Shown: positions 24,462 through 47,610 of the stretch, one piece after another
Numbering within the stretch: the first letter of the stretch is position 1
Layout of the letters: each line of letters starts with the position of its first letter
Source: Octopus vulgaris
Taxonomy: Eukaryota
DNA: 64,000 nt
NCBI GenBank assembly: GCA_951406725.2
Contig: OX597814.1
Location: forward strand, 148,242,001-148,306,000
Direction of reading: 5' to 3'
Position numbers and translations under genes: made by a program
Notes under the pieces: generated by a model
Databases searched by the model: none
What the model saw: the letters and a program-made list of their open reading frames with translations, nothing else
Told to the model about the DNA's origin: nothing

Positions 24462-24502
24462 TATTCAACCGGTTTTCGTCATTGTATGACTTGTCAAGAA
24501 TA
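24462..24502 (-). ncRNA. Minimal type I hammerhead ribozyme motif (U3-A8 variant, one extra A)
   Basis: tattc-TTGACAA-gtc(atacaat)gac-GAAA(A)-ccgg-TT-gaata. Confidence 0.6.
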
Positions 24503-25132
24503 TTTATGTTTTAAGAAGTTTTTTAAAAATTAGAAAGGGGAAAAAAAGAAAATTGCATTGTTTTTTGTAAAAGAATAATGATAAAAATGTACAAAAATTA
24601 AAAAATAAGTTCTCCGATACATTGTGAGTTCGTTGTGTATCTTGAGTTTTATGGTTGTTTACCAAAAAATTACCTTGAGGTGTTAAGATCCAAAGGGATT
24701 AAGAGCATGTGATGTGTTGTGTTGTTAAATTCAGCATGTTGCAGGACAGGAAGTAGTAGTAATTGTGGTCCTGGTTCTTCAGTTCCTGTGTTGTGAGTAA
24801 GGGAGACAACTCTTTTGAGTTCTTCAATAAAACCCAAATTATAAAACTATCATTTTAGCTTCATTTGCATTATCTTTTTTATATAATTGCTTGTTAACTT
24901 AACTTTCAGATTTTAACACTTTATTTATATTATTTTCTAATAATATAAAACTGCATAGACAATTGCATTTCAAATTGTCATATCATTTATAATAAAAATG
25001 ATAGTAATAACAACAATAGTGAAAATGATATTTAAAGAATATAAGTTTTAGCTTGAAGTGATGAATGCATGGTATCTTTATATATTTGTGTTAGTCCATC
25101 CATGAAGAGTGAGGTAGAGAAAGGAAGTTTGA

Positions 25133-26569
25133 TCAACGAGGAGTTTGCATATTAAGTTGTGTTTGGAATTTTTCAATAAAGAGATTCTCCTTGTTAATTC
25201 TCTCCTGTGTGGTGATCCCGTCTTTACATTGGTAGAAGGGGAATATATAGAATTTGGGGTTTAAGTCTTTAGCTCATGAGTCTAAGTGGTCACTCAGTGG
25301 AATTTGTCGGTATTCCGGGAGATTTATTTGTTCTTTATGCACCGTTACTCGTTTACGTAACGGGAGACTCGTTTGTCCCACATAATTATGTTGGCAACCA
25401 GCGCATGTGAGAACGTAGATAAGGTTCTCGGAGGAACAGGAGAAGTTAGTCTTGATTTTAAACTTCGTACCTTGTTTGAAGGTAAATTCAGAGCCTTCAA
25501 GTAGAAAGGGGCAGGTACCACAGTTTGAGCGTGCACATTTTTTTACTGTTGGGGGTGGATGTGGTGTGTGAAGTTTGGCATTTGTCAAGAGTTTTTTTAA
25601 AGATTTGTGTTGCCTTTTGCATTTGAGGATTTTGTGTGTATTTATAATGTTTTTCATTTTTGGGTCTGTTGACAGTAGACTGAGGTTTTGTATGATTGTG
25701 GTGTATGCTTCGATATTTTTGGGGTTGTGGGTGGAAATGTATGGAAGTATTTTGAGGTTGTGTGTGGTGTTAGGTTGGGTGGTTATCAGTGTAGTGTTGT
25801 CTAGTTCTTTGGCGCGTTTTATTCCATACTCTATAAGGGTGGAGGGATATTGACGTTGTAATAGTGTTTTTTTGAGGTCTTGAAGGCGTATTTCTCGTGT
25901 TTTTGGATCCGAGACAATGGTGCATACCCTTTTAGCTAAATTGAAAGGGATATTTGTCTTGGTGTGTTTTGGGTGGCATGAACTAAAGAGGAGGTATTGT
26001 TGTGAGTCTGTAGGTTTGTGGTAGATGTCTGTTATGATTTGGTTCTTAGGTGTTTTTATAATTAGGAGATCAAGGAATGGGAGATGATGTTTGCTTAATT
26101 CCATAGTGAATTGGATGTTGGGATGTATGTTGTTTAGTATGGTTTTGAATTCCAGGAGTTTTTCATAAGGTTCTTTCCATATGATGAAACAATCATCTAA
26201 ATACCTTTTCCAGTTTTCCATTAGGTAGGTGTGGAAAACATGTCCAAATTTCTGGCTTGATATTTCATAGAGTGACAGTTCGAAGTAACCCATTATGAGG
26301 TTCGCAAGGACTGGTGCAGCCTTGGTACCCATCGCAATGCCACATTTTTGACGGTAGTGTGTGTCGTCGAAGAGAAAAAAATTGTTTGTCAGAATGAACT
26401 TAAGAGATTCTGTAATAAAAGACTTGTTAATGCGGTCAGGGAATGTCTCTGGGTGTTTTTCTAGCCAGAAGTCAATTGCCTCTATACCATACTCATGTGG
26501 AATGTTGGTGTAGAGGTTGATGACATCAAAGGATACCAGGAGTGCCTCCTCGTTAACTGTTTTCGGGAG
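25133..26569 (-). pseudogene. PLE RT/GIY-YIG polyprotein, open for ~479 codons except one in-frame TGA at 25274-25276
   Basis: [97 protein letters not shown]. Confidence 0.9.
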
Positions 26570-26689
26570 TATATATATATATATATGTGTGTGTATATAT
26601 ATATATATATATATATATATATATATATATATATATATATATATATATATATATATATATATATATATATATATATATATATATATGTT

Positions 26690-26830
26690 CTAGATATTAT
26701 AACTAAAAGTGGAGAATTAATCGTCTTCAAATTTTGTATATTACAGTATTGTTCTCATCCGACATGTGTTTCGCGTCACCCAGCTTCATGGGTAAAACCT
26801 TGAAAAAATGTGCAGATGTGTAGAGCTCAA
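26690..26830 (-). mobile_element. PLE terminal fragment with degenerate hammerhead (26757-26795)
   Basis: Minus strand cccATGAAgc(tgggtgac)gcGAAAcacatgTCgg; adjacent to (TA)n. Confidence 0.45.
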
Positions 26831-44330: not shown

Positions 44331-45689
44331 GATCAATGTTGTCAGATGTTTGCAGTGGAGGCTCCCATGCATGCTGTTTGCTGTGCCTCGTTGACCCAAG
44401 CACGAGTTAAGAGAAAAACAAAAGGAAACTAAACAATTTGAAACGTCTTTCTACTTCTGCTTTTTCTGATATTTAGAAGCAAAGGACAGATTTCAGAGTA
44501 AGCATAGCCCATTCTACAAAGAAAAGTTTAGTGAAGCCAATTATAAAAAATGTTACCAGAGTAGTATTACTGGATGAACCTTTCAATGTTTTGAACCCAC
44601 GCTATAGAGCACTGTACATGCGCTTGAGGCGATCTGTGAAGCCCAATTGCAGACGAGTCATTTGATTTGTGTGTATACAGATACTGATTTGCAGTAACTC
44701 TTGGAAAATATTGCTTTTACATTTGTGGCAAGGAAGCGTAGATGTAAATAAGAATTCGTCCCTTCCTTCAGCCGCTATAATTCCCTCAAGTGGTGGTGAA
44801 GTCTTTCATTTTAGCATTAGTGTCTATGTGAATTTTGGTGTGGTGGTTTTAGATTCAGATGAAGGAAAGGATTGGGTGGACTTCTAAGAAATTCAGCACT
44901 TCCTGTTTGGAATATTCCTCCACCTACTCCCTGAGCCAAATGCAAATAGTAACAACTGAAACTTAGAATCGATTGGAACGAAAGCCAATAGGAAGTAACA
45001 AAGGTTTTAGTCAAGCACTACGTTTCTTAGATTCGGTTCTACTACGCAGATATTTTCTTAGAACGAAAATTTATAATAAAGGCATTCATTATAATTATGA
45101 GTTAATTTTTTATCATCAATTCTTCTCCTCTTTTCTGTGTAGTAAGACTTTTTCCTTAGTGTTGTATTGAGTTCTTTCATTCTTTGCCACTACTTAATTC
45201 TATATTTTTAATTTTCGTTTCATCGAACCTTTATTTTCTTTAGCGTTCTTACTTCTCTTTCATTCCTTCATATTTCTTTCCTTCCTTCTTTCTTTCTTAC
45301 TTTCTTCCTACCTTCCATTCTCCCGTCTTTCCTTCCTTATTTTTCATTCTATCTTACAATGTTTATGTCTTACACTTTTTTCTCATTCATATAAATTTTA
45401 TATTGTTCTTGTAACCACAACAAGTAAAACCGTTGAAACAAAAAAGGGGAATTATTTATTTAAGGAGTTTGAACTGAGAGCGTGATTGTAGTTATATATA
45501 TATATATATATATATATATATATATATATGTATATATGTATATATAATTTTATATATGTATATGTATATATAAAGTATATACATACATATATATACGCAT
45601 ATATATATATACATATATATATGTATATATATATATATACACATGAGAGAGAGGAAGGGAGAGATAGAGATAATATCATATAATGTATA

Positions 45690-46770
45690 TACATTCCAAA
45701 GTCAAAAGAAAAATGACAAACAGTTTTATCTCAGGAAAATTAAATTATAAAATAAATTTCCTTGGTTTTATAGAAAGGAAATACCAAATAGCACACAAAC
45801 AAGAACAACATTTAGAAAAAAAAAAGACAAAAGAAATTTATATCAAATACAACTAACAACTGAAACAAAATAGATGATCGATTTCACAAAAGTAAAGAGA
45901 AATCAACAACGTGATGCTGCACTCGAAGCTGAAGTAGTTGACTCAAGACTGAAGATTTACGAATCTTGAGCAAGATTGAAATATTTTCGTGAAGTAGGAA
46001 GAAGACAATTATTGAACCTGATAACCGATTCGCAAGCAGAACATTCTGCAAGGAGTATTGCAAGTAGTGTTAGTTCTGAGAATAGTGATAGGAGGGCAAG
46101 TTATGCAAAGATGGCTGCTAATTTAGAAGATGTACGTGTACCATCGAGTGTTAACGTAGCATCTGCTTCATAAGAGGTTATTAGTAATGCTTGTTGAAAT
46201 GTCGGTAGAGGCTCTCGTGTGACTGAGGGTACAAATATTTCTAGTGGAGCAAGGGGTTATAAGCACGGAAAAGGATCAAAGAAAAAAGAATAAAACAGAA
46301 AAGAAATACATCAAGTAGAGAAATAAAAGAAGTGAATCTTATAAAAACCCGCTGGATAATGATTTTTAAATTCTAGGTGAAATATCGAGATATGGGTTGC
46401 AGGGTAACTGCAAAGTTCCTTGAAACTTCGTAGTATTACTTGTTTAGGAAATACACGGACATTTATTCGATAGATTCTGAGTAATCTAAAAGGGTTAAAA
46501 CATTTCTGTGATACAAGTATAACACATATTACTTGCTTGCGAAGTCAGAGGAGTGGCATTATTCGAAAGCTTTAAAGACTATTGAAAAAGTTGCAAGACG
46601 CAACGAAAATTTAAAAAAAATAAAAATAAGAATTATGTGGAAATTTTACCGGTGAGTGTGTTACATTGTACGGTACAAAAAGAAAATGGTTCTCCCCAGA
46701 CACAACAGAATATGCTTCAACACACGAAATAATATAAAGAATCTTTGCAAACCAACTCCCAAAACGAAAT
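45690..46770 (+). mobile_element. Decayed PLE-like ORF N-terminal region with defined 3' end, near (TA)n tracts
   Basis: Remnant LSNLKGLKHFCDT..RLLKKLQ resembles the PLE 'L.KGL.F.P' motif. 46577-46770 is homologous to 62030-62220 (minus). Confidence 0.5.
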
Positions 46771-47417
46771 ATATATATATATATATATATATATATATAT
46801 ATATATATATATGTAAAACATTACGTTATATAATTAGGGTTCAGTAAAATAATTTACTTTACCACACAACGAACTTTTAGAAATAGCAGTGTGTGTGGTA
46901 ATGTAAATTATTTTACTGAACCCTAATTATATAACGTAATGTTTTAAATATACCGTAAATGGTCTTTTTACATACTGAACACTACTTGGTAAAATTAATT
47001 AATAATTAATTAGTTTTACCCTTTTATTATTGCTTATATATATATATATATGTATGTATATATTATATATTATTATATATATATATATATATATATATAT
47101 ATATATATATATATATTGTGTGTGTGTGTGTGTGTGTGTGTGTGTGTGTGTATGTATATGTATATACCCCTTGCTCCACTAGAAATATTTGTACCCTCAG
47201 TCATACGAGAGCCTCTACCGACATTTCAACAAGCGTTACTAATAACCTCTTATGTAGCAGATGCTACGTTAACACTCGATGGTACACGTACATCTTCTAA
47301 ATTAGCAGCCATCTTTGCATAACTTGCCCTCCTATCACTATTCTCAGAACTAACACTACTTGCAATACTCCTTGCAGAATGTTCTGCTTGCGAATCGGTT
47401 ATCAGGTTCAATAATTG
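46006..47417. repeat. 252-bp near-identical inverted repeat (46006-46257 / 47166-47417)
   Basis: The same peptide QLLNLITDSQAEHSARSIASSVSSENSDRRASYAKMAANLEDVRVPSSVNVASA appears in a + and a - ORF; only a few nucleotide differences. Confidence 0.97.
46814..46946. repeat. Inverted repeat, 55-bp arms, 23-nt spacer
   Basis: taaaacattacgttatataattagggttcagtaaaataatttac(t)ttaccacaca and its reverse complement, one mismatch. Confidence 0.95.
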
Positions 47418-47610
47418 ATAAGGGGCAACAACCCTGAAACATGTCTGTAGCTGTCTGACTGGCAGGATGAAGCGGCTGACCTTCCTTGTTCGAAGGTTTG
47501 TAATGGACGCAGGTTCGTGTGTCAAATACCTAGCTTGAGGCAATGGCCTCTTGGAGCTAATCAGACTGCCATATTGGTATGACTGCCATATTGGTATGGC
47601 GATAACTATT
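47415..47610 (+). mobile_element. PLE pLTR fragment starting at a hammerhead core (47415-47445)
   Basis: TTGATAA-gggg(caacaa)ccct-GAAA-catg-TC; internal 17-bp tandem duplication 47564-47597; ends in (TA)n. Confidence 0.65.

What the first reader, a model, noticed from the sequence alone, without database searches (positions are those of the whole stretch)
24462..47445. Three unrelated PLE termini carry hammerheads with the same compensatory U3-A8 core
Seen: 24462-24502(-) TTGACAA, 42964-43009(+) TTGAAAA and 47415-47445(+) TTGATAA. Each is followed by a different stem II (gtc/gac, ggtc/gacc, gggg/ccct), GAAA, a palindromic stem III (accggt, accggt, acatgt) and a UH site. Known: the canonical core is C3UGANG8A with a C3-G8 pair, the U3-A8 swap preserves that pair, and PLE pLTRs carry minimal hammerheads whose palindromic stem III allows dimeric cleavage. 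Inference: the double change in three different sequence contexts is unlikely to be decay and points to a lineage of variant ribozymes that CUGANGA-based searches would miss.
Basis: partly seen in the sequence, partly recalled or inferred. Interest (0 to 1): 0.75.

Follow-up and report, generated by a model that had tools for sequence, protein, structure and literature searches.

The report
Known hammerhead variant in jumping repeats
Three small RNA motifs predicted to cut themselves carry the same paired swap of two core letters; the swap is fixed in three abundant jumping-repeat families of this animal genome and is already published for such elements, so the find is real but mostly ordinary.

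Summary
All three U3-A8 hammerhead motifs are present and beyond chance, and U3-A8 is the family norm: 99 of 100, 98 of 100 and 41 of 44 copies read. The variant is already published for Schistosoma PLEs (~1,300 hits, PMC4209133) and as natural covariation (PMC3088659); this scan noted it before elsewhere in this genome. Corrections: sites 1 and 2 are not unrelated but sister Neptune-type PLE families (57% protein identity); site 3 is not a PLE terminus but a fragment of a ~361-nt tandem retrozyme that has lost the 5' strand of helix I; site 1's family is one base shorter than its sister families, so its core has either an extra A or no cleavage-site base. Genome-wide, positions 3 and 8 covary strongly, and U3-A8 makes up roughly half of the pattern matches, almost all with the longer palindromic helix III. 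Among retrozymes a single U3-A8 clade is modestly rejected (p-AU 0.017), with a U3-G8 wobble family alongside. Cleavage was not testable. New members of a known kind; interest 0.27.

The parts
24369..26570 (-). 5'-truncated copy of Neptune-type PLE family F1 (part of RT, Cys-rich linker, GIY-YIG, 3' pLTR) between (TA)n tracts; this copy has a premature stop near the end of the endonuclease; ends approximate
   Evidence: (RVT_1 E 5e-7; GIY-YIG below cut-off)
24462..24502 (-). Site 1 hammerhead motif: helix I 24502-24498 with 24466-24462 (5 bp), U3 24497, A8 24492, helix II 5 bp, GAAA plus one extra A, CCGG palindrome, predicted N17 24467; one base shorter than sister families
42881..43060 (+). 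~180-bp 3' pLTR end of Neptune-type PLE family F2 between (TA)n tracts; no coding part left in this copy
42964..43009 (+). Site 2 hammerhead motif: helix I 3 bp (42968-42970 with 43003-43005) plus 2 pairs after a mismatch, U3 42971, A8 42976, helix II 4 bp, GAAA 42993-42996, CCGG palindrome, U16.1 43001, A17 43002 (predicted cut after 43002)
47414..47613 (+). 5'-truncated fragment of a ~361-365-nt non-LTR retrozyme unit (family F3/F4), followed by (TA)n
47415..47451 (+). Site 3 hammerhead remnant: U3 47415, A8 47420, helix II 4 bp with one G-U, GAAA 47436-47439, CATG palindrome, C17 47445, 3' strand of helix I; the 5' strand of helix I is missing
47161..47417 (-). Inverted copy (98.4%) of window 46006-46261 joined to the retrozyme fragment through a 4-nt microhomology covering 47414-47417; likely a template switch during insertion
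   Evidence: mechanism inferred

Best explanation
The three motifs are type I hammerhead folds with a U3-A8 core pair that is fixed in three multi-copy families, two sister Neptune-type Penelope-like elements and one ~361-nt tandem retrozyme, and they likely cut the elements' RNA as dimers through the palindromic helix III. Shown: sequence, family membership, copy numbers and covariation of positions 3 and 8. Inferred from published work: U3-A8 keeps the Watson-Crick pair that holds position 8 in the active site, so selection on the transposing RNA keeps the pair and removes mixed states. Two hammerheads in a tandem or pLTR-ORF-pLTR transcript would pair their palindromes (6 bp; -8.3 kcal/mol for F2, -4.6 for F3) and release unit-length RNA, which in the retrozyme would circularise and would be pasted into (TA)n by a PLE enzyme. 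The window copies themselves are solitary, 5'-truncated leftovers: site 2 has no partner, site 3 cannot form helix I, and site 1's family is probably a weak or dead cutter.
For: Family norm: F2 1,952 copies, 99 of the 100 listed U3-A8; F1 470 copies, 98 of the 100 listed; 41 of 44 distinct F3-like contexts in fetched loci, the rest being 2 U3-G8 (probably a sister family caught by the regex) and 1 C3-A8. Genome-wide pattern counts with the 4-nt palindrome (reversed-pattern control in brackets): U3-A8 18,992 (912), C3-G8 3,837 (689), U3-G8 1,691 (706), C3-A8 1,244 (498); odds ratio about 35 raw, by hand from those counts. Stems II and I vary between families while staying paired. Full-length tandem copies with a hammerhead in both pLTRs: L096, L097 (F1) and L091 (F2). 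Retrozyme array L171 has 4 hammerheads spaced 360-362 nt, is 86% identical to F3, and its circular fold has z -7.8 against 100 shuffles. Intact F3 has a 6-bp helix I. Published: U3-A8 in Cercyon PLEs, ~1,300 hits (PMC4209133); natural U3-A8 covariation, stated to be active in vitro (PMC3088659 section 8).
Against: No cleavage or RNA-end data exist here. Copies within a family are not independent, so the counts overstate the number of events. PLE minimal hammerheads cut poorly even as dimers (PMC4209133), and in the Anolis PAc element cleavage was not needed for insertion in vitro and no RNA-seq ends mapped to the cut site (PMC11167929). F1 spread to 470 near-identical copies with a core one base short of its sisters. 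A U3-G8 retrozyme family and a U3-G8 PLE subfamily also spread. The minimum-energy folds of the site 1 monomer and of intact F3 partly pair the core bases, so the active fold is not the predicted ground state.
Confidence: 0.8

Rival explanations
1. The U3-A8 folds are kept as structural or protein-binding signals of the pLTR or retrozyme RNA, or as passengers, and cleavage is marginal for mobility.
For: PAc hammerhead mutants did not reduce insertion in vitro (PMC11167929); Naiads proliferate without hammerheads (PMC8557442 passages); F1 amplified with a shortened core.
Against: The 3-8 pair is a tertiary contact of the catalytic fold, and it stays paired across many diverged families with mixed states scarce, which a passive passenger would not do.
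Confidence: 0.15
2. U3-A8 is neutral decay of C3-G8 under AT-biased mutation, amplified by a few founder copies.
For: The genome is AT-rich (GC 27-39% per 2-kb bin); both changes are transitions; copies are not independent.
Against: Decay would make single mutants commoner than double ones; the counts show the reverse. In the 2-nt-helix class, C3-G8 has 17,530 matches while U3-A8 is near its control (1,063 against 971). Young families at 99% identity carry U3-A8.
Confidence: 0.03

Closest known systems
U3-A8 hammerhead variant of Schistosoma mansoni Cercyon PLEs (Cervera and De la Pena 2014, PMC4209133; parts 1-2 of 4 read, supplement file 2 searched, file 1 not searchable)
   Same: Same core covariation, same place in pLTRs, same dimer logic, also missed by the first descriptor; small palindromic helix III already reported for fly, rotifer, shrimp and mosquito PLEs.
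   Different: There U3-A8 (~1,300) was fewer than C3-G8 (~2,000) and the two listed examples have the minimal 2-nt helix III. Here it is about half of the pattern matches, goes almost only with 4- or 6-nt palindromic inserts, and occurs in Neptune-type PLEs and in retrozymes.
Natural U3-A8 hammerheads (Perreault et al. 2011, PMC3088659; section 8 read, passages)
   Same: C3-G8 to U3-A8 covariation seen in several natural examples and stated to be active in vitro; an insertion in the GAAA box (U13a) is also described.
   Different: Rare there; here the norm of high-copy animal retroelement families. The site 1 extra A is a different insertion and is untested.
Neptune-clade EN+ Penelope-like elements (Craig et al. 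2021, PMC8557442; passages)
   Same: RT then CX2-5CxxC linker then GIY-YIG, tandem pLTRs with inverted 5'-truncated copies, microsatellite targets, optional frameshifted ORF1.
   Different: Clade assigned by architecture only; no tree with reference elements was built.
Metazoan non-LTR retrozymes (Cervera and de la Pena 2020, PMC7229834, passages; Li et al. preprint 10.64898/2026.07.22.740005, part 1 of 5)
   Same: Short tandem non-coding units with one type I hammerhead each and a strongly folded circular form.
   Different: U3-A8 core; related families here carry C3-G8, U3-G8 and U3-A8. Circular RNA not shown here.

Membership tests
Type I hammerhead ribozyme | Core boxes with a 3-8 Watson-Crick pair and G12-A13-A14, A15.1-U16.1 | tested here: met
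   Sites 2 and 3 directly; site 1 only with an extra A in the GAAA box
Type I hammerhead ribozyme | Helix II closing the core | tested here: met
   5, 4 and 4 bp
Type I hammerhead ribozyme | Helix I flanking the cleavage site | tested here: inconclusive
   Met at site 1 (5 bp) and site 2 (3+2 bp) and in intact F3 copies (6 bp); not met in the window's site 3 copy, where the 5' strand is lost
Type I hammerhead ribozyme | NUH cleavage triplet | tested here: inconclusive
   GUA at site 2 and GUC at site 3; site 1 has U17 only in the extra-A register, otherwise G17 or no N17
Type I hammerhead ribozyme | Self-cleavage after N17 | not testable with these tools
   Needs an in vitro assay or raw RNA reads; only contigs were offered
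Neptune-type EN+ PLE (sites 1 and 2) | [quoted passage not shown] | tested here: met
   RVT_1 above cut-off in L097 and L100; GIY-YIG E 1.5e-3 and 1.5e-4, both just under the curated cut-off
Neptune-type EN+ PLE (sites 1 and 2) | CX2-5CxxC linker before the endonuclease | tested here: met
   C-x4-C-x2-C in both family proteins; feature from PMC8557442
Neptune-type EN+ PLE (sites 1 and 2) | Tandem pLTRs with a hammerhead and inverted 5'-truncated copies | tested here: met
   L091, L096, L097 direct pairs 4.4-4.6 kb apart; inverted pairs in most other fetched loci
Neptune-type EN+ PLE (sites 1 and 2) | RT phylogeny within the Neptune group | not tested
   No reference PLE proteins were fetched
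EN+ PLE terminus (site 3) | pLTR lying downstream of the element's own RT-EN ORF | tested here: not met
   1 of 30 F3 loci (L038) has a PLE coding fragment upstream, cut off at the junction; the unit is tandem or circularly permuted instead
Non-LTR retrozyme (site 3) | Short non-coding tandem unit with one type I hammerhead per unit | tested here: met
   L171: 4 units of 360-362 nt, 86% identical to F3; L033 is terminally redundant
Non-LTR retrozyme (site 3) | Expression as a circular RNA | not testable with these tools
   Only contigs; a unit-length back-joint appears in all 4 runs laid but tandem DNA gives the same joint

The most novel reading that the evidence does not exclude
In this genome the supposedly rare U3-A8 pair is a co-dominant working hammerhead core (about 18,000-19,000 motifs, roughly half of those counted), reached more than once through a mobile U3-G8 wobble stage and kept only with the longer dimer helix III; the site 1 family then spread after losing a core base, a natural test of whether Penelope-like elements need their ribozyme at all.
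Probability: 0.3. Interest if true: 0.5.

Novelty: new member of a known kind. Interest (0 to 1): 0.27.

Why it matters
The variant itself is in print, so the find does not add a new ribozyme type. It does show that CUGANGA-only descriptors would miss about half of the hammerheads counted in this genome. The related young families with C3-G8, U3-G8, U3-A8 and a one-base-short core give ready-made natural constructs for two open questions: how the 3-8 pair switches during evolution, and whether hammerhead cleavage is needed for PLE and retrozyme mobility.

Tried and rejected
Rfam scan: no hammerhead family among the 150 of 295 matches shown, which are microsatellite hits to miRNA models; 145 rows were not shown. 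The repeat finder was swamped by microsatellites and was useful only for the 46006-46257/47166-47417 inverted pair. RNA evidence: no RNA holder listed on record; only contigs could be laid, which cannot show ends, strand or level. Idea that the AG just before U3 in F2 is a splice acceptor as in D. virilis Penelope: no such joint among the 4 joints listed in 4 runs; unsupported, not excluded. First impression that U3-A8 outnumbers C3-G8 about 5-6 to 1: rejected once the 2-nt helix III class was counted. RT tree of U3-A8 against C3-G8 PLEs: abandoned, because most of the C3-G8 loci among the 40 fetched were short fragments without RT. A strict rule that U3-A8 needs the longer helix III: rejected as a rule, since the two S. 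mansoni U3-A8 examples have the minimal helix. Papers not held: Lunse et al. 2017, Przybilski and Hammann 2007, Martick and Scott 2006; what they report on U3-A8 kinetics or PLE variants was not seen and may bear on novelty. Searches for prior print: 'U3A8' gave 0 papers; the U3-A8/C3-G8 term set gave only PMC4209133; 'octopus' plus 'hammerhead ribozyme' gave 4 listings, none on this.
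Full report
Setting. The window lies on contig C1 of a 2.8-Gb, 227-contig, microsatellite-rich animal genome. Earlier scan notes call it an octopus; I did not test that.

Observation. A descriptor with the two core boxes, helix II and a palindromic helix III finds these 3 and nothing else in the window; 200 block-wise dinucleotide shuffles give 0.045 U3-A8 hits per window and never 3. The descriptor was written after seeing the motifs and does not require helix I. Rfam showed no hammerhead among the 150 of 295 matches listed.

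Site 1 (U3 24497, minus strand) lies about 0.8 kb behind a truncated RT-GIY-YIG frame, between (TA)n tracts. Its family F1 has 470 exact pattern matches; 98 of the 100 listed are U3-A8 and 2 neighbouring ones are C3-A8. The best 40 copies are 99-100% identical. All 30 fetched loci read GAAA plus one more A before the CCGG palindrome. Of 20 further loci fetched from the extra-A list, 11 have a clean 4-5 bp helix I in a canonical register with an 8-nt palindrome and U17 or A17; 1 (98% identical to F1) shares F1's shorter form; the other 8 fit neither register well or lack the extra A. So F1 is probably a one-base deletion derivative of sisters 70-89% identical to it: either an A is bulged in the GAAA box with U17, or the 8-bp helix forms and no cleavage-site base is left. 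Its activity is doubtful.

Site 2 (U3 42971) is a ~180-bp pLTR end between (TA)n tracts. Family F2 has 1,952 pattern matches; 99 of the 100 listed are U3-A8 and 1 is U3-G8. Longer copies carry an RT-EN frame 56.8% identical to F1's over 734 aa, and an ORF1 42% identical. F1 and F2 are therefore sister families, not unrelated ones. Both have the CX2-5CxxC linker of Neptune/Nematis PLEs and full-length tandem copies with a hammerhead in both pLTRs (L091, L096, L097).

Site 3 (U3 47415) is not a PLE end. Its family has no linked ORF in 29 of 30 loci; the exception is a truncated PLE piece abutting it. One copy is terminally redundant, and an 86%-identical relative forms a tandem array with hammerheads every 360-362 nt (L171), whose circular fold is far more stable than shuffles (z -7.8, n=100). 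This fits a non-LTR retrozyme (PMC7229834 passages). Intact copies have a 6-bp helix I. The window copy starts at 47414; the 5' strand of helix I is replaced by an inverted copy of 46006-46261, joined through a 4-nt microhomology that includes U3. It cannot fold as a hammerhead alone. Contigs of four runs from four studies, labelled as four other organisms, cover the unit and list no difference at positions 3 or 8 but do at N7 (12 rows hidden), a weak sign that the core is shared with relatives.

Covariation. With the pattern core-N(8-20)-YGAAACNNGT the genome gives U3-A8 18,992 (reversed control 912), C3-G8 3,837 (689), U3-G8 1,691 (706) and C3-A8 1,244 (498). Paired states dominate, which decay would not give. 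With the minimal 2-nt helix III the picture reverses: C3-G8 17,530 (674), U3-A8 1,063 (971); the mixed states were not counted for this class. The extra-A pattern adds 1,985 (729), mostly U3-A8 in the list shown. By hand, excess counts are about 20,000 C3-G8 and 18,000-19,000 U3-A8. These are sequence patterns without a pairing filter, other palindromes were not searched, and copies within a family are not independent.

One lineage or several? U3-A8 occurs in many Neptune-type families and in retrozymes. Among 14 retrozyme-like rows (core box removed, 209 columns) a U3-A8 row (L181) is 85% identical to a U3-G8 family and groups with a C3-G8 family, apart from F3/F4; the AU test rejects one U3-A8 clade at p 0.0165. 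Support is modest: 1 of 11 inner branches is starred, two rows have long branches, and BLAST hints were seen before the test. A C-G to U-G to U-A path is plausible but inferred; one gain with reversions is not excluded.

What is known. Cervera and De la Pena describe 'U3-A8 instead of C3-G8' in S. mansoni Cercyon PLEs with about 1,300 hits, and weak cleavage of minimal PLE hammerheads even as dimers (PMC4209133, parts 1-2 of 4; supplement file 2 lists two such motifs; file 1 could not be searched). Perreault et al. report natural U3-A8 covariation and cite in vitro activity (PMC3088659 section 8). In the Anolis PAc element the hammerhead needs protein to cut and is not needed for insertion in vitro (PMC11167929 passages). 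The scan's own notes record U3-A8 PLE and retrozyme hammerheads several times in this genome and others; these are unchecked notes and were not used as evidence.

Mechanism. Most likely (0.8) the families carry working, probably slow, dimer-dependent hammerheads: two motifs in one transcript pair their palindromes (predicted -8.3 kcal/mol for F2, -4.6 for F3) and cut after N17, trimming PLE precursor RNA or releasing retrozyme monomers. Sequence, families and covariation are shown; cleavage, dimer formation and circles are inferred. The three window copies are isolated truncated insertions and are unlikely to act in place.

Verdict. The genome-wide share, the wobble family and the one-base-short F1 core are the points of added value. 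New member of a known kind; interest 0.27.

Noticed in passing
L091, L097, L098, L100, L102, L103, L186 (F1, F2 and two other families): Two-ORF layout with a conserved U-UUU-UUA heptamer in the ORF1 frame and RT-EN in the -1 frame, a likely programmed ribosomal frameshift (L096 has a changed site). A frameshifted ORF1 is already noted for PLEs in PMC8557442 Fig. 1 legend.
   Followed up: partly
L112, L121, L126, L132 and many C1 matches: The commonest C3-G8 minimal hammerhead family sits in a short repeat with a tRNA-like head and an (AAT)n tract, apparently a hammerhead-bearing SINE (the tRNA likeness is by eye).
   Followed up: no
L091:7235-7238, run X9: Five contigs of a presumed RNA run end with four letters that read A-to-G at core positions 6-9 of the F2 hammerhead on the element's sense strand, compatible with ADAR hyper-editing; weak, no matched DNA.
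   Followed up: no
L229, L230; repeated matches: A retrozyme family with a fixed U3-G8 wobble core, 85% identical to a U3-A8 relative (L181); a U3-G8 PLE subfamily also recurs.
   Followed up: partly
L091:2735-2855: A second PLE family is inserted about 95 bases downstream of the F2 3' hammerhead, in the same orientation, bringing its own hammerhead and ORF1.
   Followed up: no
window 16262-17589 (-): Fragment of a different non-LTR retrotransposon (RVT_1 E 4e-30), next to a 25-bp tandem repeat at 17534-17734.
   Followed up: no
window 45860-46340 (+): The stretch that was copied in inverted form beside site 3 looks coding-like by eye and matched none of the other 229 loci held.
   Followed up: no
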